From the sequence record OZ035799.1: a DNA stretch of 64,000 nt. One strand, given 5' to 3'. The stretch comes from Justusliebigvirus alia. The notes beneath the pieces were generated by a model. It did no database searches. It saw nothing but the letters and a program-made list of their open reading frames with translations, and was not told the origin of the DNA. Both the position numbers and the translations under genes were made by a program. Shown here one piece after another: positions 27,902 to 34,192 of this stretch (position 1 is the stretch's first letter; each line of letters opens with the position of its first letter).

Positions 27902-28093
27902 TTAGAATGGTAATCTTTGTATGTCACTTATCCCCACACCAAGAAGTCTAGCAATATCCTTATCTAAAAGCAACTCTTTTTGTTCTAAAATGTTAATCAG
28001 ATCTCCTAATACTTCTTTAATGTCACGATCATTTTTAGCAACGTGACCACCTGCCGTATCAACTTTATCTTTAAAAACAAAGTAATGATCCAT
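27902..28093 (-). CDS. hypothetical protein
   Basis: Track start 28105; ATG at 28093 has GGAGGG RBS. Confidence 0.45.
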   Translation of the reverse strand: MDHYFVFKDKVDTAGGHVAKNDRDIKEVLGDLINILEQKELLLDKDIARLLGVGISDIQRLPF

Positions 28094-28139
28094 AATACCC
28101 TCCATATAAATAAAGGAGGCTTTCGCCTCCTTTTATCAC

Positions 28140-29300
28140 TTAGTAAGAACGACCACCAAACACATACTCTGTGTAGTTTTTACGTTCTTTGTTTTTAATA
28201 ACAACTTCAATGTTGTTGCCTTTATCATCGGTGAACACAAAGTGATAACCGTCACCACCCATTGTACGGATGTGTTTTTCATCATACGTCAGCAAGATAC
28301 GGTCTACACCCCAGTAGTAGTCACCTTCTTCATCTTTGTCTTCTACTGTAACGACCCCTTCCATTTCAGGAAGATGCTCTTCTCCTAGCTTATGGTCTAC
28401 AGCTACAACATAACGATTACCGCTAAACAAACCCTGTGCTGTCATACCGTCAATATCGGTATCTGCCGAAACATCTCCTGTACGATCTACACCGTTGACT
28501 TTCAGAAGTTTAACTTCTTTTGCAGCATAGCGGTGTTCAGTAATACTGATACCCATTAATGCAAGTGCATCAGAGAATTTGTCATTAGGGTAACGGTTAA
28601 GTTCTTCTACTAATGACTGAACAATATCAAAGTTCAAGTCCACGGACAGATTATAAAGCGTTTCAAAATCTGGTAAAAAGGCTTTGTTCTCCAGATTTTT
28701 AGCCAGATAGTCATCCATAGTAGCTTTAGGTAGTTTCTTATAGCTAAAGCTGTAGAAAATACGGCTAGGGCGATTACGCAAAAATTCTGATACATAACCA
28801 TCATTTTTAGTCAATACAAACAGCTTGTCATAGCCACCAACACCATCCAGCAGGGTAAGCAAACCATCCTGTGCATCTTTTTCAGCATACAGTTTATCAA
28901 ATTCATCGATCATAATCATCACAGGTTGTGTGATTTTAGACATAAAATTGATAAAGCCTTCACCATTAAAAGCACTACCGATAGAAATAGTAGGAATACC
29001 CATTTCACGAAGAGCAGAAGACAGCATTTTAGCTTGCAAAGTTTTACCGCTACCCTTCGTACCCTCAAGGAGAACACCTGTGTTTTTACCTTTACGGCTA
29101 AGGAACGTCTTGATAATACGTTCTGATTTATCATCAGTATCACCGTATGTTACTGAAGGGACTTCCATATCGTTTTTAGGATACAGGAAGAACTCACCAC
29201 TTTGAGTAACACCTACACCAAAAGTTCCTGCTGGAATTTCTTCAATATCTGTGCCAGACTTCTGACGCAGGAAGATTTGATTGCCGAATACTGTAAACAT
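28140..29300 (-). CDS. AAA+ ATPase (paralog A)
   Basis: 386 aa; Walker A GTKGSGKT, Walker B MIMIDEFDK; collinear similarity to the + strand ATPase at 44833-45960. Confidence 0.75.
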   Translation of the reverse strand: MFTVFGNQIFLRQKSGTDIEEIPAGTFGVGVTQSGEFFLYPKNDMEVPSVTYGDTDDKSERIIKTFLSRKGKNTGVLLEGTKGSGKTLQAKMLSSALREMGIPTISIGSAFNGEGFINFMSKITQPVMIMIDEFDKLYAEKDAQDGLLTLLDGVGGYDKLFVLTKNDGYVSEFLRNRPSRIFYSFSYKKLPKATMDDYLAKNLENKAFLPDFETLYNLSVDLNFDIVQSLVEELNRYPNDKFSDALALMGISITEHRYAAKEVKLLKVNGVDRTGDVSADTDIDGMTAQGLFSGNRYVVAVDHKLGEEHLPEMEGVVTVEDKDEEGDYYWGVDRILLTYDEKHIRTMGGDGYHFVFTDDKGNNIEVVIKNKERKNYTEYVFGGRSY

Positions 29301-29320
29301 AGTTTTCTCCTCTGTTTAAT

Positions 29321-29791
29321 TTAGTCAGATTCCCAAATGTTGTCTTTCTTAATCCACATTCGTTGATTATCTGAACCTCTATAACGTTTCGTTGTTGGTT
29401 GATTCATATCATACTTACCATCTATCACTATGTCAACCAGTTTTTTAATTTTTTCTGGAATTTCTTCAAAAAGATATCCTGTATATAAGACAATATCTTT
29501 TTTGTTTCCAAAACAATCTCTTACCTTTTCAAGAACATACTCTACAGTGTCAATGTTCTCTTTGTCAAGAGGTTCACCACCTAAAACGGTTAATCCTTTA
29601 ATGAAAGGTCGAGATAAATCTTTCAAGATAAGATCTAATGTTTCAGTAGTGAACTCTTGTCCGTAGTTATACGACCAGGCTTTCTGGTTAAAGCAGCCAC
29701 GGCAACCGTGGCTACAACCGCTCACCCACAAAGAGCATCTTACACCGTCACCGTTGAGCATGTCAACAGGTTCATATCCGGCGTAATTCAA
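29321..29791 (-). CDS. nrdG: anaerobic ribonucleotide reductase activating protein
   Basis: 156 aa; TTG start; N-terminus MNYAGYEPVD and radical-SAM CSHGCRGC resemble E. coli NrdG. Confidence 0.85.
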   Translation of the reverse strand: MNYAGYEPVDMLNGDGVRCSLWVSGCSHGCRGCFNQKAWSYNYGQEFTTETLDLILKDLSRPFIKGLTVLGGEPLDKENIDTVEYVLEKVRDCFGNKKDIVLYTGYLFEEIPEKIKKLVDIVIDGKYDMNQPTTKRYRGSDNQRMWIKKDNIWESD

Positions 29792-30729
29792 AAATGTTTC
29801 TCCCTTTCTAATACTTCTTGCATTTTACCTTTATTATAAGGGCGAGAGTTAGGGGCAGAAAGGTATCCTGACACTCTTCTGATTACAGATATAGATTCTT
29901 CCTCATGATTGCCACAACTTGGACACTCGAAGCCTTTAGCTGTTGCCTTAAATTCACCATGAAAACCACATTTGAAACACTGATCTACAGGTTGGTTCAC
30001 GCCAAAATAAGGAATTTTGTTGTAGGCATAATCTACAAGAGTTTCCAGTGCTTGCAAGTTATTTTTAAGGTTTGGTGTTTCTACATAACCTATGTTCCCA
30101 CCATTACTGATTTGTGCAAAACCTTCCTCATAATCCCACTTTTGGAACGGGGTAGTGTGCATCCACACAGGTTGATGGAAAGAGTTTGTCAAGTAGTCAC
30201 GATCAATAGAACCTGGATAGCGATCATTTAATGCTTTGGCAAATTTATAGCACAAGGATTCTGCTGGTGTTCCATACAAACTAAAAGCTAAACCAGAACG
30301 TTCTTTAAATGTGCCACAGATATCCTTCATATATTGAAGGATGTTTTTACCCATTGCTTTTGGATTGGTGTTACCTGGGTATAAAATCTCCATAGCTTCT
30401 GCTAAACCTACATAACCGATACTAATAGAGGCATAACCACCTTCGAATAGCTTACCAATCTCTTCATTAGCTTCTAGTCGAGCTAAAGCCCCTTCCATAA
30501 ACAATGTAGGGTTTTGAGATGCTTTGGTATGTCTAATACGGTTAACACGTAGTATATGTGCCTTATACGCCATCTCCATATGTTGTTCCAACAGTTCAGT
30601 AAATAAGATGCCCTTTTCACGGGACTCTGCTGCAATGATAGGTAAGTTTAAAGAAACCACGCCTAAGTTGAAACGACCATCATATTTTTCACCTTGCTCT
30701 GTTGCATAGTATGACAAGAAACTTCTACA
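29788..30729 (-). CDS. nrdD: anaerobic ribonucleoside-triphosphate reductase, exon 2
   Basis: Frame continues from exon 1 across intron (MG|CRSFLSYY); glycyl-radical motif RVSGYL near C-terminus. Confidence 0.8.
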   Translation of the reverse strand, partial: CRSFLSYYATEQGEKYDGRFNLGVVSLNLPIIAAESREKGILFTELLEQHMEMAYKAHILRVNRIRHTKASQNPTLFMEGALARLEANEEIGKLFEGGYASISIGYVGLAEAMEILYPGNTNPKAMGKNILQYMKDICGTFKERSGLAFSLYGTPAESLCYKFAKALNDRYPGSIDRDYLTNSFHQPVWMHTTPFQKWDYEEGFAQISNGGNIGYVETPNLKNNLQALETLVDYAYNKIPYFGVNQPVDQCFKCGFHGEFKATAKGFECPSCGNHEEESISVIRRVSGYLSAPNSRPYNKGKMQEVLEREKHF

Positions 30730-31009
30730 CATTATGTTCAAAGTGGCTCGCAAGGCCACTCCCGCACCATTACGTGCTGCTGCATGTCACCATGCAGATC
30801 AGACTATATCTTCATGCTTAAAGCATGTCTACCATTTGGGGTGTCATAGGCTTACACCCTACGCTGCTACATTCATCACAGCTAGTCGTTAGGCATTTCG
30901 TAATAGTACCCCCCTTCTTCTGTGTTGGGAGTTCTGTTACGTTTAGCACGGGATTGTCTCGTTGAGAGTTCCCCCGTTTAGGCAGATTTTACATGAGCAG
31001 TTATAGTTT
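30730..31009 (-). ncRNA. group I self-splicing intron (ORF-less) in nrdD
   Basis: 280-nt non-coding insert; exon 1 ends in U, intron ends in G; core CUAAACGGGGGAACUCUC...GACAAUCCCGUGCUAAA resembles T4 td/nrdD intron core; P7-like GACUAG/AUAGUC. Confidence 0.7.
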
Positions 31010-31867
31010 ACCCATGCTTGTGACGCGACCATCTGAAGATCCTGTAACTTCTTTGTTTAAAGGTACAGAGATAAAATCAGGATAAATGCGTTCAGCACAA
31101 CACTCCATTGCCAGTTGCTTCAAATCATAGTTTGGATCGCCAGCTTTCATGTTAACACCATCTTCCAAGAAGAAGATAACTTTAGGAAACACAGGAGTTA
31201 CCCTATCTTTTCCTAATCCTTGTTTGTGCACCATTAGGTAGTTTTTAGTGATCATTCTACCAAAAGCAGAGGTATCCAAACCTAAACTAATTGTTATAAA
31301 AGGTGACTGACCATTTACACTCATTAGAGTGTTCACTTGGTAGATTAAAGTTTGCATTGCATCATAGACCTGTTTATCTACCATACGCATAGCAATATCA
31401 TAATCACCAACATCAGCATATATTTTATTAAAACTTGCTTTAACGTATTGACTAAGCCCAGTATCAACATGTGCACAAGTTTGTCCACCATATTGGCTAG
31501 AAGCTACTGCTTGAATAATTTGAGTTAGGACAGTAGTCGCTACACCGATAGATTTTGGTTTTTCAATATGTGCATTACCAATACGGAAACCGTTCTCAAG
31601 CATATCTTGGTAATTTACCAGGCAACAATTAGTTAAAGGTGAGAGTAAATAATCTAAATCGTGGATGTGACCATACCCACTTTTATGCCATTCTGCCAGA
31701 TCTTCCGGTAAAATATGGGTCATTGCCATGTGCTTGCTTAGGATACCTGCTAGTAAATCTCGGTGAGTATTAACAATCATTGCAGGTTTGTTTGCATTTT
31801 CACGAGTAAATTCTTCGGATGTTTGTTCGAGGAATCCGATTACATCCTCATATAGTTTTTGGGTCAT
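31010..31867 (-). CDS. nrdD: anaerobic ribonucleoside-triphosphate reductase, exon 1
   Basis: ATG after GGAGGA; track ORF runs into intron and stops after 3 extra codons. Confidence 0.8.
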
Positions 31868-31956
31868 TAATCCTCCGTGGAAAATAAAAGCCAGCTTAAT
31901 GCTGGCTTTAGGGTGGATCTTTATTTTAAATCTTTTTCGTAAGATTGTCCTTGATC

Positions 31957-32907
31957 TTAGTCAAGGTTTTTGGTAATACGTGTACAACCGTCAGAAGTCA
32001 AACCGTCAACTTGAGTTTCCCAAGTGCCATGAATATTTCGGAACAATGTTGTTACACCTTTTGGTTCATTAATAATGATTGCCATAACAAGTTTAGGATC
32101 GATAACAGACATAATCTTTTCCTCAATACCCTCTGTAATAACATTATTGCGCACAATATTAATTGCATCTTCTTGTACAGTAAGAGCACTTACGTTCTTA
32201 AGAGTATATACCTGCTGCGTAGTGTAAATGATACGAACATAACTTACAGAACGAGTAGGCACAGGTTTACGCGGTCGGCGAAAACGTGGTTTTGGTGAAG
32301 ATTCAGTCTTACTTTCATTTTTTGAATAATACTCCTCAAACAGTTTAGTAAATGTTTTTACATCAACTACAAACCGATCTTTCCTATATGGAGAATTCTT
32401 ATGTGCACCATTAATACCACTGTTTTCATCGAAGAAAGTAATGTTTTCTTCAGTTGAATACATTAGATAATGATCTGCATTTTTCCAATGTGGTTGTGGA
32501 CAATGAGGATTACAAACGGAAAGCAAGTAATTAATATTTTCTTCCGTGGCCTCAGTATCCAGGAAGCACGTATTATGCACAGTCAGTTGTACTTTTTCAG
32601 CCATATCTTTTTCTTTATCCTCTTTAGCAAGATATTCAGTACGAATAATCTCCAGAAAACCTTCAGGTGTTACTTCCATAAATTTATATTCAGGATGAAG
32701 CTCCATATATTCAAATCCACAACCATCTAATTGCTGTAGGAAGTTAGGGTAGAAGAACAAATCATTAACACTGTGAATCAGATCATTGATTTCTGCTTCA
32801 GTTGTGTAACCAAAACTCTTGTGAATTGCTTCGTTAAGAATATGCAGGATACCCATCTCTTCTGCTGCTTTTTTAACTTCCAGTTTATTAGCGTAAAATG
32901 CAATCAT
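31957..32907 (-). CDS. hypothetical protein
   Basis: 316-aa ORF; AAGGAGAA RBS; terminator-like hairpin downstream. Confidence 0.55.
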   Translation of the reverse strand: MIAFYANKLEVKKAAEEMGILHILNEAIHKSFGYTTEAEINDLIHSVNDLFFYPNFLQQLDGCGFEYMELHPEYKFMEVTPEGFLEIIRTEYLAKEDKEKDMAEKVQLTVHNTCFLDTEATEENINYLLSVCNPHCPQPHWKNADHYLMYSTEENITFFDENSGINGAHKNSPYRKDRFVVDVKTFTKLFEEYYSKNESKTESSPKPRFRRPRKPVPTRSVSYVRIIYTTQQVYTLKNVSALTVQEDAINIVRNNVITEGIEEKIMSVIDPKLVMAIIINEPKGVTTLFRNIHGTWETQVDGLTSDGCTRITKNLD

Positions 32908-32924
32908 TATGTTCTCCTTCTAAA

Positions 32925-33359
32925 TTAGTTTAAAATTTCTTTTGCAATGGTAGAAGCAAGTTTTCCATCATATTGATTCGGATACTCTGCTTTAAGGTGT
33001 TTCATCATATCTGGCATTTTCTTGCCTGTCAAGGCAAATTCTTCAGCAATAGCTCGAAGATCATCTTCAGATAGCATTTCTGGCAAATATTTTTCCAGAG
33101 TGGTGATATCACGCATAGCTCGCTCACACTTGCTAATGGAGGCATTAACTTTCTTAAGCGAGTCTAGTTCCTCTTTAGCGTGTGCAATACCAATCTTAAC
33201 AATGTTAATCATAATATCGTCTTCTGATTTGTTTAGATTTGCCTTTTGAGTACGAGCAAGGTCAAACTCACCAATAATATTAGTTAACAAAGCAAAAGCA
33301 CCCTTATCGGTTGTACGTGCTAAGATACGATCTGCTTTCATTTGTGTCACAATAGACAT
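32925..33359 (-). CDS. GatB/YqeY-domain protein
   Basis: 144 aa; LEKYLPEMLSEDDLRAI...KKMPDMMKHLKAEYPNQYDGK matches YqeY pattern. Confidence 0.6.
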   Translation of the reverse strand: MSIVTQMKADRILARTTDKGAFALLTNIIGEFDLARTQKANLNKSEDDIMINIVKIGIAHAKEELDSLKKVNASISKCERAMRDITTLEKYLPEMLSEDDLRAIAEEFALTGKKMPDMMKHLKAEYPNQYDGKLASTIAKEILN

Positions 33360-33371
33360 TCTATTCTCCTC

Positions 33372-33944
33372 TTATTTGCTAATGCTTTGAGTCTTGTTTA
33401 CAACACGATTTATTGCCAGTGAAGCCCTAGGCTCTGCAATACCTGTTGCATAGATATAAGGATGACCTCTTGGAGACTCCCTCATACCGAATGAACCTAA
33501 TTCTAAACCATATTCATCCTCTATGTCAACCCCAATATTAGTGGGTACTAAATATGTTTTAACTCCATAATAAGTAGAGAAGAAACAGCGCATAGAGTTA
33601 GCATACTCTTCAATTGTAGCATCAGGGTAGAACTCAATCAACTCCAATTTCAAGAAAATATTGAAATGAGTATCATCTAAATTTTCTTCTGTACGGTAAC
33701 ATGGTGTTAGTGCCATATAAGGATTACCTGCTGCAAATTCAAAACCATCCTTCTCCATTTGCAGGAAAGATTGTTCTGCACTAGCTACATAGTATTTACC
33801 GTTAGGATGACCTAATGGGCGATCCTCTTTATTTTCTGGTAGTGTGTACGCCAGTATATCAGCATCCACGAGGTATGGAACTTCTAACATTTGTGCAAAC
33901 CGACCATAGTAATCAATAGCTTGAGCTATTACTTCAACATTCAT
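33372..33944 (-). CDS. class II aminoacyl-tRNA-synthetase-like catalytic core protein (tentative)
   Basis: 190 aa; motif-2-like YRTEENLDDTHFNIFLKLELIEF and motif-3-like GLELGSFGMRE. Confidence 0.35.
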   Translation of the reverse strand: MNVEVIAQAIDYYGRFAQMLEVPYLVDADILAYTLPENKEDRPLGHPNGKYYVASAEQSFLQMEKDGFEFAAGNPYMALTPCYRTEENLDDTHFNIFLKLELIEFYPDATIEEYANSMRCFFSTYYGVKTYLVPTNIGVDIEDEYGLELGSFGMRESPRGHPYIYATGIAEPRASLAINRVVNKTQSISK

Positions 33945-34192
33945 GAGCGACCTCCATTGCGGAATGCACGTTTAGTAATGTTCGACATAGTGATCAAATC
34001 TTGAAGCGTCATATCAGGAAAATGCTGTTCAAGAACACCTTCAACAGCGCCTACAATATCTGATAACTCAATAAGTTGCATCAGCTTGCAATCTTGATCA
34101 ATAGCATCTTGAAGTTCATAAAGCTCTTCTTGAATCTTAGCAACAGAACCATATTCCTCTTTGCTAATCTCCTTCAAATGATACCCTGCCAC
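33941..34192 (-). CDS. MazG/HisE-like all-alpha NTP pyrophosphohydrolase (tentative)
   Basis: 83 aa; GTG start after AAGGGGG; short acidic helical protein. Confidence 0.4.
   Translation of the reverse strand: MAGYHLKEISKEEYGSVAKIQEELYELQDAIDQDCKLMQLIELSDIVGAVEGVLEQHFPDMTLQDLITMSNITKRAFRNGGRS

What the first reader, a model, noticed from the sequence alone, without database searches (positions are those of the whole stretch)
30730..31009. ORF-less group I intron splitting the anaerobic ribonucleotide reductase gene
The nrdD reading frame is interrupted by 280 nt of non-coding sequence. Joining the flanks restores a conserved NrdD segment (…RVTSMG|CRSFLSYY…). The insert has group I hallmarks: exon 1 ends in U, intron ends in G, and its core (CUAAACGGGGGAACUCUC…GACAAUCCCGUGCUAAA, plus GACUAG/AUAGUC pairing) resembles the T4 td/nrdD intron family. 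Unlike the T4 nrdD intron it carries no endonuclease ORF, and the host genome uses a T7-type replisome, pointing to horizontal spread of the ribozyme.
Basis: partly seen in the sequence, partly recalled or inferred. Interest (0 to 1): 0.6.

Follow-up and report, generated by a model that had tools for sequence, protein, structure and literature searches.

The report
Group I intron in phage nrdD

Summary
Confirmed and ordinary. The window is a phi92-like myovirus (100% identical to OZ035770, 98.6% to phi92). nrdD lies on the minus strand: exon 1 is 31867..31010, the intron is 31009..30730 (280 nt) and exon 2 is 30729..29788.

- **Boundaries.** A natural intron-less allele (phage alia) fixes them to the base.
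- **Intron identity.** Rfam's group I model scores 72.3 bits (cut-off 50). A ten-sequence alignment of relatives pairs 98.2% of helix cells, against 33-41% in shifted controls.
- **Spliced product.** It is a full-length NrdD. The intron sits just before the codon aligning with T4 NrdD Cys290.
- **Relation to T4.** The ribozyme is about 70% identical to the T4 nrdD (sunY) intron, but T4's intron lies about 110 codons upstream.
- **Lost endonuclease gene.** Sister phages carry the same intron with a 169-aa HNH endonuclease ORF in P6a. The window's form is a clean deletion of that ORF. A second, different deletion exists in other relatives.
- **Homing signature.** Four synonymous changes cluster in the first 9 nt of exon 2.
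- **Prior annotation.** The phi92 GenBank record already lists a "spliced variant" NrdD.

Novelty is nil and interest is low. The "T7-type replisome" argument is irrelevant.

The parts
31010..31867 (-). nrdD exon 1 (286 codons, ends ...RVTSMG, last base U)
   Evidence: ORF list. Boundary fixed by the intron-less allele. Matches the N-terminal half of Pfam NRDD and T4 NrdD.
30730..31009 (-). Group I intron, subgroup IA2-like, 280 nt, with no complete ORF
   Evidence: Rfam RF00028 at 72.3 bits. Own model R1 at 182.8 bits, the only hit in the window. Covariation. Absent from phage alia.
29788..30729 (-). nrdD exon 2 (starts at the codon aligning with T4 NrdD Cys290, CRSFLS...; contains the glycyl-radical domain and a Zn ribbon)
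   Evidence: Pfam Gly_radical matches residues 477-579. The Cys aligns to T4 NrdD C290.
30992..30998 (-). Internal guide sequence GCUCAUG (intron 12-18). It pairs with exon-1 CAUGGGU (31016..31010) to form P1, with U.G at the splice site
   Evidence: Read from the sequence. JSE has a compensatory change: exon GAUGGGU with guide GCUCAUC. T4 sunY has the identical guide.
31002..31006 (-). CUAUA in the P1 loop (intron 4-8). Candidate P10 partner of exon-2 UGUAG (30729..30725)
   Evidence: Sequence. L038 has the same pairing. In L091, exon-2 UGUCGCGC faces a CGCG in its own P1 loop. The intron-less allele UGCCG would pair poorly.
30802..30986 (-). Catalytic core, given in intron numbering (window = 31010 - n): P3 (24-29/177-182), P4 (33-38/57-62), P5 (43-46/50-53), P6 (63-64/116-117), P7 (123-127/204-208, pseudoknotted with P3), P8 (183-188/192-197)
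   Evidence: Rfam alignment, MFE fold and per-helix pair counts.
30899..30941 (-). P6a/P6b arm (intron 69-111). It keeps the Shine-Dalgarno-like GAAGAAGGGGGG and the stem that flanks the HNH ORF in sister phages. The deletion scar is at ...GGUACU|AUUACG
   Evidence: Alignments with phiWec187, nepoznato, phi92 and AMO3598.
30839..30882 (-). P7.1 (128-131/144-147) and P7.2 (151-156/166-171), the extra hairpins typical of subgroup IA2
   Evidence: All 4 P7.1 pairs and 4 of 6 P7.2 pairs show changes on both sides.
30743..30797 (-). P9 (213-219/224-230, GUGA loop), P9.1 (233-236/243-246) and P9.2 (251-255/263-267)
   Evidence: MFE fold. P9 has 5 of 7 pairs with changes on both sides. P9.1 and P9.2 were not in the covariation test.
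30730..30730 (-). Terminal G (omega-G) at the 3' splice site
29321..29791 (-). nrdG (activase). It overlaps the nrdD stop, so the operon context is intact
   Evidence: Pfam Fer4_12 at 1.4e-41 and Radical_SAM. phi92 annotation.

Best explanation

**How it works.**
- After transcription the guide GCUCAUG pairs with the last seven exon-1 bases (P1, with U.G at the cleavage site).
- An exogenous guanosine bound in P7 attacks the 5' splice site.
- The exon-1 3'-OH then attacks after the terminal G. Exon 2 is probably held by a short P10 (UGUAG/CUAUA).
- The ligated mRNA encodes one 599-aa NrdD. The junction falls between the codons that align with T4 NrdD Gly289 and Cys290.

**History.**
- This copy descends from an intron that carried a 169-aa HNH homing-endonuclease gene looped out of P6a. 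That form is still present in VEcB, arall, phiWec187, SD2, nepoznato and nieznany, and in HMD-6 and JSE.
- A 490-nt deletion between GUACUG and GUUCUG removed the ORF. It left the ORF's ribosome-binding region and the P6a stem behind.
- The intron reached this lineage by homing. All occupied alleles share exon-2 TGTAGAAGT, while empty alleles have TGCCGTAG(C/T).

**Shown versus inferred.**
- Shown: the boundaries, the fold with covariation, the restored ORF, the allele series and the deletion scars.
- Inferred: actual splicing, the direction of events and homing.
For: - **Model hits.** Rfam RF00028 scores 72.3 bits, E 2e-16. R1 scores 182.8 bits and is the only hit in the window.
- **Covariation, MAFFT alignment of 10 relatives.** 98.2% of cells pair, against 33-41% for slid partners. 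26 of 47 pairs change on both sides, and 0 of 500 shuffles reach the observed score.
- **Covariation, 130 distinct sequences.** 93.8% of cells pair, against 33-43% for slid partners.
- **Fold.** The MFE fold recovers the same helices.
- **Intron-less allele.** It is collinear at single-base resolution.
- **Spliced product.** Full-length NRDD plus Gly_radical. It aligns to T4 NrdD residues 5-604, with the junction at G289|C290.
- **P1.** There is a compensatory change in JSE.
- **ORF-containing relatives.** They carry the same intron with a 510-nt ORF. PHROG HNH endonuclease scores 1.9e-34; Pfam HNH_3 and I-HmuI NUMOD-like are weak hits.
- **Two deletion junctions.** Both are subsets of the ORF-containing sequence.
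- **SNP cluster.** Differences from intron-less alia fall at exon-2 +3, +4, +6 and +9. All are synonymous, against 23 differences in the other 1791 nt.
- **Prior annotation.** phi92 annotates a joined 'spliced variant'.
Against: - No transcript or biochemical data are available here, so splicing is inferred from sequence.
- nrdD is dispensable in aerobic culture. A splicing-dead copy would therefore not be purged quickly.
- This copy has one P6a mismatch (C74.A106) and an extra G relative to phi92. Both are peripheral.
- An SD-like GGGAG plus a GTG start lies inside P9.2. It could in principle start a separate C-terminal fragment, and phi92 also annotates that ORF.
- P10 is short, and only one covarying example supports it.
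Confidence: 0.92

Rival explanations
1. Split gene without splicing. The insert is a decayed intron that no longer splices, and NrdD is made as two polypeptides that assemble. This would resemble the Aeh1 NrdA that is split by mobE.
For: - Exon 1 ends in an in-frame TAA two codons into the insert.
- A 323-aa ORF starts at GTG 30759, preceded by GGGAG.
- phi92 and most relatives annotate two separate CDSs.
- Non-splicing split reductase genes are documented (PMC7344957).
Against: - Every core helix, the U.G pair, the terminal G and the guide are intact.
- The intron is 99-100% conserved across many isolates, while the exons differ by about 1.5%.
- The GTG start and its SD are buried in the P9.2 stem.
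- The split would fall immediately before the conserved Cys that aligns with T4 NrdD C290, inside the barrel.
- An early in-frame stop after the 5' splice site is also seen in the splicing T4 sunY intron.
Confidence: 0.05
2. A primitively ORF-less intron. The window's form is ancestral, and the endonuclease gene invaded P6a later in sister phages.
For: - ORF-less introns at the same site, with a short T4-like P6a hairpin, exist in L038 and in TH18-type phages.
- An ORF-free ancestor therefore did exist at some stage.
Against: - The window keeps the ORF's upstream SD-like region and the long P6a stem CGUAAC.../...UUACG. That stem exists only in ORF-bearing versions and not in the short-P6a type.
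- A second ORF-less type (AMO3598) keeps the last 18 nt of the ORF instead.
- Two different junctions that are both subsets of one ORF-containing sequence are explained by two deletions, not by two insertions.
Confidence: 0.06
3. Chance interruption or assembly artefact. On this reading the 280 nt would be a misassembled or chimeric insertion.
For: None found.
Against: The same insert occurs at the same site in at least 12 independently deposited genome records at 99-100% identity. ORF-containing and intron-less alleles also exist.
Confidence: 0.01

Closest known systems
Spliced nrdD of Escherichia phage phi92 (NC_023693 / FR775895, PHI92_gene_192A 'spliced variant')
   Same: It is the same intron at the same site. 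It is 279 nt, against 280 nt in the window, and 99.3-99.4% identical including the flanks. Gene order is the same.
   Different: There are two differences, both in the P6a/P6b arm: one extra G, and G to A at the deletion junction.
T4 nrdD (sunY) group I intron carrying I-TevII
   Same: - The host gene is the same.
- The ribozyme core is homologous, about 70% identical over intron positions 12-231.
- The guide GCUCAUG is identical.
- P7.1 and P7.2 are present, and no P2 hairpin is present in this model.
- There is an early in-frame stop after the 5' splice site.
   Different: - The insertion site differs: T4 is at AYE|Y in phase 1, the window at G289|C290 in phase 0, about 110 codons apart.
- T4 carries a GIY-YIG ORF 3' of P9. 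This family carries an HNH ORF in P6a, and the window carries none.
nrdD introns with an HNH ORF in JSE (Krischvirus), HMD-6 (V5-like) and nepoznato / nieznany / VEcB / arall / phiWec187 (Stephanstirmvirinae)
   Same: The site is the same, exon 2 starts with the same TGTAGAAGT, and the ribozyme is the same at 79-99% identity.
   Different: They retain a 169-173-aa HNH/I-HmuI-like ORF, about 490 nt, whose stop codon lies in the P7 5' strand. The window has lost it.
T4 td intron (I-TevI)
   Same: It is the same structural subgroup. A 33-nt stretch covering J8/7, P7 and P9 is 100% identical.
   Different: The host gene, the guide sequence and the endonuclease (GIY-YIG in P6a) all differ.

Membership tests
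Group I intron (Rfam RF00028) | Conserved core helices P3-P8, scored by a covariance model above the curated threshold | tested here: met
   72.3 bits against a gathering score of 50, E 2e-16, model positions 1-253 of 253. The 5' end of that alignment runs into exon 1 and mis-assigns P1.
Group I intron (Rfam RF00028) | Helices supported by compensatory base changes in relatives, including the P3/P7 pseudoknot arrangement | tested here: met
   - Alignment A3: 98.2% of cells pair, against 33-41% for slid controls. 26 of 47 pairs have changes on both sides.
- P3 has 5 of 6 pairs changing on both sides, P7.1 has 4 of 4, and P9 has 5 of 7.
- P7 itself is invariant and therefore uninformative.
- Alignment A4: 93.8% of cells pair, against 33-43%. 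That alignment is fitted to the model.
Group I intron (Rfam RF00028) | 5' splice site after a U that forms a U.G wobble with an internal guide sequence (P1) | tested here: met
   CAUGGGU pairs with GCUCAUG over 7 bp, with U.G last. JSE shows a C-G to G-C swap at the distal pair.
Group I intron (Rfam RF00028) | Terminal G at the 3' splice site, with exon 2 aligned by P10 | tested here: inconclusive
   The terminal G at 30730 is met. P10 (UGUAG/CUAUA, 5 bp) is plausible, but its support is a single covarying relative, L091.
Group I intron (Rfam RF00028) | Exon ligation restores an uninterrupted functional reading frame | tested here: met
   The 599-aa product covers Pfam NRDD positions 1-562 of 562. 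It is collinear with the intron-less alia NrdD, with only 2 amino-acid differences.
Group I intron (Rfam RF00028) | Guanosine-dependent self-splicing | not testable with these tools
   Needs an in vitro GTP-labelling or splicing assay, or RT-PCR.
Subgroup IA2 (T4 td / nrdB / sunY type) | Extra hairpins P7.1 and P7.2 between P7 and P3', plus P9.1/P9.2 extensions | tested here: met
   Both hairpins are present and covary. The assignment of this feature to IA2 rests on textbook knowledge (Michel & Westhof classification), not on a tool.
Mobile (homing) group I intron | Encodes its own homing endonuclease | tested here: not met
   - There is no complete ORF. The 43- to 52-aa ORFs inside are out of frame with the relatives' endonuclease.
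- The ORF is present in sister phages.
- The window's copy could move only if an endonuclease is supplied in trans. That is an inference.
T4 nrdD (sunY) intron orthologue | Same insertion site in nrdD | tested here: not met
   T4 is interrupted after ...DAFQAYE and is continuous through ...SPMGCRSFLS.

The most novel reading that the evidence does not exclude
The nrdD gene of enterobacterial myoviruses may host one ribozyme lineage that has occupied two different sites. One is T4's AYE|Y site; the other is the G289|C290 site used here.

- The internal guide is unchanged (GCUCAUG) and the 5'-exon targets are near-identical (UAUGAGU versus CAUGGGU). This is the pattern expected if the ORF-less ribozyme moved by reverse splicing rather than by endonuclease homing.
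- Different endonuclease genes were then acquired independently: GIY-YIG 3' of P9 in T4, and HNH in P6a here.
- The Stephanstirmvirinae would then offer a living series of the whole gain-decay-loss cycle: empty site, ORF-containing intron, and two independent ORF deletions. These states are polymorphic even within single species.
Probability: 0.25. Interest if true: 0.4.

Novelty: already known. Interest (0 to 1): 0.15.

Why it matters
- **Annotation.** Most GenBank relatives list nrdD as two genes, and some add a bogus "hypothetical protein" inside the intron. The correct product is one 599-aa NrdD made from a joined CDS.
- **Biology.** This is a textbook case: a group I intron at a conserved, functionally critical position of a ribonucleotide reductase, caught after loss of its homing endonuclease.
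- **Modest added value.** Closely related phages provide empty, ORF-bearing and two kinds of ORF-deleted alleles. That series could serve as a convenient natural system for studying the homing cycle and trans-mobilisation.

Tried and rejected
- **phi92 genome paper.** I tried to read PMC3457257 to see how the authors justified the "spliced variant". The paper is not held. The rV5, Certrevirus CB7, BME3, RNR-survey and T4-relatives papers do not discuss this intron.
- **Rfam's P1.** Rfam's own alignment of the 5' end places P1 inside exon 1 (31055..31010). I rejected this in favour of the CAUGGGU/GCUCAUG pairing, which fits the exact boundary and covaries in JSE.
- **Same site as T4.** I considered whether the intron is the T4 nrdD intron at its own site. 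tblastn and PDB alignments rejected this.
- **Other introns or tRNAs.** I looked for them in the window and found none.
- **Allele census.** Exact counts were not possible, because short 100%-identical td-intron hits contaminate the identity bands. They give about 29 intron-containing records among phi92-like and Phapecoctavirus phages: 12 type A, 6 type B and 11 with the ORF. About 37 close and about 85 more distant records lack the intron.
- **Empty allele with the occupied signature.** No intron-less allele carrying exon-2 TGTAGAAGT was seen among the sampled records.

Full report
**What the window is.** A 6-kb stretch around the finding is 100% identical to OZ035770.1 (Justusliebigvirus alia) and 98.6% identical to Escherichia phage phi92. 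Both are myoviruses of the Stephanstirmvirinae. The genes here run on the minus strand in the order nrdD exon 1, insert, nrdD exon 2, nrdG, then an AAA ATPase.

**Checking the observation.**
- On the minus strand, exon 1 (31867..31010) ends ...GUC ACA AGC AUG GGU.
- The frame then reads AAA CUA UAA and stops.
- Exon 2 resumes at 30729 with UGU AGA AGU UUC.
- Phage alia (NC_052655.1) belongs to the same species as the window but has an uninterrupted 1800-nt nrdD. Aligned to the window, it is missing exactly 31009..30730...CATGGGT|TGCCGTAGC....
- The joined exons encode 599 aa. They cover Pfam NRDD end to end (E 1.2e-165), include the glycyl-radical domain, and align with T4 NrdD (PDB 1H78) over residues 5-604.
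- In that alignment the junction falls between T4 Gly289 and Cys290. From established knowledge of class III reductases (not tested here), Cys290 is the thiyl-radical cysteine on the finger loop. Introns and inteins typically sit at such highly conserved positions.

**Is it a group I intron?**
- Rfam's Intron_gpI model gives its only hit in the 64 kb here: 72.3 bits against a threshold of 50, E 2e-16.
- I derived an explicit secondary structure, in intron numbering where window = 31010 - n:

| Element | Positions |
|---|---|
| P1 | exon -7..-1 with 12-18 |
| P3 | 24-29 with 177-182 |
| P4 | 33-38 with 57-62 |
| P5 | 43-46 with 50-53 |
| P6 | 63-64 with 116-117 |
| P6a | 69-73 with 107-111 |
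| P7 | 123-127 with 204-208 |
| P7.1 | 128-131 with 144-147 |
| P7.2 | 151-156 with 166-171 |
| P8 | 183-188 with 192-197 |
| P9 | 213-219 with 224-230 (GUGA loop) |
| P9.1 | 233-236 with 243-246 |
| P9.2 | 251-255 with 263-267 |
| omega-G | 280 |

- An unconstrained MFE fold reproduces every nested helix of this model, with z = -2.9.
- For covariation I scanned IMG/VR for the J6/7-P7 motif, paired the 5' and 3' halves, and aligned ten diverse ORF-free relatives with MAFFT (A3).
- On that alignment 98.2% of cells form standard pairs, against 33-41% when partners are slid by 1-3 columns. 26 of 47 pairs change on both sides, and no shuffle out of 500 reaches the observed covariation score.
- A covariance model built from A3 (R1) finds one hit in the window (30777..30999, 182.8 bits) and 160 in the viral loci. 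On 130 distinct sequences, 93.8% of cells pair against 33-43% for slid controls. That alignment is fitted to the model.
- P7 is invariant and so says nothing either way.
- P1 gets independent support from JSE, where the exon reads GAUGGGU and the guide GCUCAUC. This is a C-G to G-C swap relative to the window.
- P10 (exon-2 UGUAG with CUAUA in the P1 loop) is plausible. Beyond sequence inspection, its support is one covarying relative: L091, with exon-2 UGUCGCGC and a loop CGCG.

**Relation to T4.**
- The ribozyme is about 70% identical to the T4 nrdD (sunY) intron over positions 12-231. It has the same guide GCUCAUG.
- It is not at T4's site. T4 is interrupted after ...DAFQAYE, in phase 1 inside a Tyr codon, and is continuous through ...SPMGCRSFLS.
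- T4's ORF (I-TevII, GIY-YIG) lies 3' of P9.
- A 33-nt stretch covering J8/7, P7 and P9 is 100% identical to T-even td introns.

**The missing endonuclease.**
- The same intron at the same site carries a 510-nt ORF in the Justusliebigvirus phages phiWec187, VEcB, arall and SD2. It does so too in the Phapecoctavirus phages nepoznato and nieznany, in HMD-6 and other V5-like phages, and in JSE, a T4-related Krischvirus.
- The ORF is an HNH endonuclease: PHROG 59 at 1.9e-34, with weak Pfam HNH_3 and I-HmuI NUMOD-like hits.
- It is looped out of P6a. Its last eight codons run through P6a', P6' and J6/7, and its TAG lies in the P7 5' strand GACUAG.
- The window and phi92 differ from these by one clean 490-nt deletion between GUACUG and GUUCUG. 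The deletion leaves the upstream GAAGAAGGGGG (Shine-Dalgarno-like) hairpin and the long P6a stem.
- A second ORF-less type (AMO3598, ECGD1, PD06, PD211, pEC-M2929; 290 nt) has a different junction that keeps the last 18 nt of the ORF.
- Two different scars, each a subset of the ORF-bearing sequence, mean the ORF was lost at least twice.
- A third ORF-free form (L038, and probably the TH18-type V5-like phages) has a short T4-like P6a hairpin. It may represent the state before the ORF arrived.

**Evidence for homing and horizontal spread.**
- In the spliced nrdD, the window differs from intron-less alia at 27 of 1800 positions.
- Four of these are at exon-2 +3, +4, +6 and +9. There are none from -318 to -1, and the next is at +69. 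All four are synonymous.
- At the background rate of 1.3% per nt, about 0.12 differences are expected in 9 nt. By my own Poisson estimate, four or more has a probability of about 7e-6.
- Every occupied allele examined starts exon 2 with TGTAGAAGT: window, phi92, phiWec187, nepoznato, HMD-6, L038 and JSE. The empty alleles have TGCCGTAGC (alia) or TGCCGTAGT (T4).
- None of the sampled intron-less records has the occupied-type junction.
- This is the short co-conversion tract expected of endonuclease-mediated homing. It also matches the intron's P10 guide.
- Presence is patchy even within species. Species alia has an empty allele and an ORF-less allele. Species VEcB has an ORF-less allele and an ORF-containing allele.
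- Among Stephanstirmvirinae records, about 29 carry the intron and well over 100 do not. These counts are approximate.
phi92's polymerase is indeed annotated as T7-like family A, but that has no bearing on the question.

**Mechanism.** The best-supported account is ordinary group I self-splicing. P1 forms, an exogenous G attacks, and the exons are ligated after omega-G. This yields a single NrdD mRNA that is translated together with nrdG. The copy in the window cannot home on its own. It could be copied into an empty site only if a co-infecting phage supplies the HNH enzyme (inference). The stop codon two codons into the intron may keep ribosomes out of the folding ribozyme; T4 sunY has a similar early stop (the functional reading is inference). 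The rivals are a non-splicing split gene, a primitively ORF-less intron, and an artefact. They are weighed separately and are together given less than about 0.1.

**Novelty.** The phi92 record (FR775895 / NC_023693) already carries a joined CDS, PHI92_gene_192A, noted as "spliced variant". The window is 99.3% identical to it across this region. Any Rfam scan finds the intron. It is therefore already known, and interest is low. The only mildly new points are these:
- the allele series;
- the two independent ORF deletions;
- the shared guide sequence at two different nrdD sites, which allows but does not prove a reverse-splicing transposition.

Noticed in passing
window 28000-34000, compared with MG065639, MG065645, MG065656 and MG065689: Four GenBank records named 'Campylobacter phage' (A150, A145, C3, A110a) are 98.7-99.4% identical to this coliphage region, intron included. 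The host labels look doubtful.
   Followed up: no
window 30730-31009, compared with NC_052655.1, OZ035773.1 and MT932211.1: Intron state is polymorphic within ICTV species. Species alia has an empty site (type isolate) and an ORF-less intron (the window). Species VEcB has an ORF-less form (OZ035773) and an ORF-containing form (MT932211).
   Followed up: partly
L128 (AMO3598) 190-265, compared with window 30899-30941: There is a second, independent deletion of the intron's HNH ORF: junction GAAGAAGGG|TTATGATTATGAGTTCTG, giving a 290-nt intron. It occurs in AMO3598, ECGD1, PD06, PD211 and pEC-M2929-1AR.1. The AMO3598 record annotates a 33-aa 'hypothetical protein' inside the intron, over this junction and the core downstream of it.
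   Followed up: yes
window 30779-30811: A 33-nt stretch (J8/7, the P7 3' strand and P9) is 100% identical to the td introns of many T-even phages. This suggests shared or exchanged core modules among phage IA2 introns.
   Followed up: no
L091 about 1400-1440 and L092 about 1400-1440 (IMG/VR contigs): nrdD introns at the same Gly|Cys site appear to have C rather than U at exon position -1 (Gly codon GGC). It faces A (L091) or G (L092) in the guide, which is unusual for group I 5' splice sites, if the boundaries are as inferred.
   Followed up: no
L061, L083, L092, L062 (IMG/VR contigs): Several viral contigs carry four to seven hits of the IA2 intron model within less than 15 kb. These are very intron-dense loci.
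   Followed up: no
window about 28570-28660 (inside the ATPase gene 28140..29300): The phi92 record lists a 'hypothetical tRNA' on the opposite strand inside the homologous ATPase gene. ARAGORN finds no tRNA anywhere in the window.
   Followed up: partly
window 31016-31010, compared with L004 (T4) about 1480-1487: The T4 sunY intron and this intron sit at different nrdD sites. They use the identical guide GCUCAUG on similar 5' exon ends (UAUGAGU versus CAUGGGU). This is compatible with ectopic movement by reverse splicing. However, an ATGRGT hexamer is expected about once per 1.8-kb gene by chance.
   Followed up: partly
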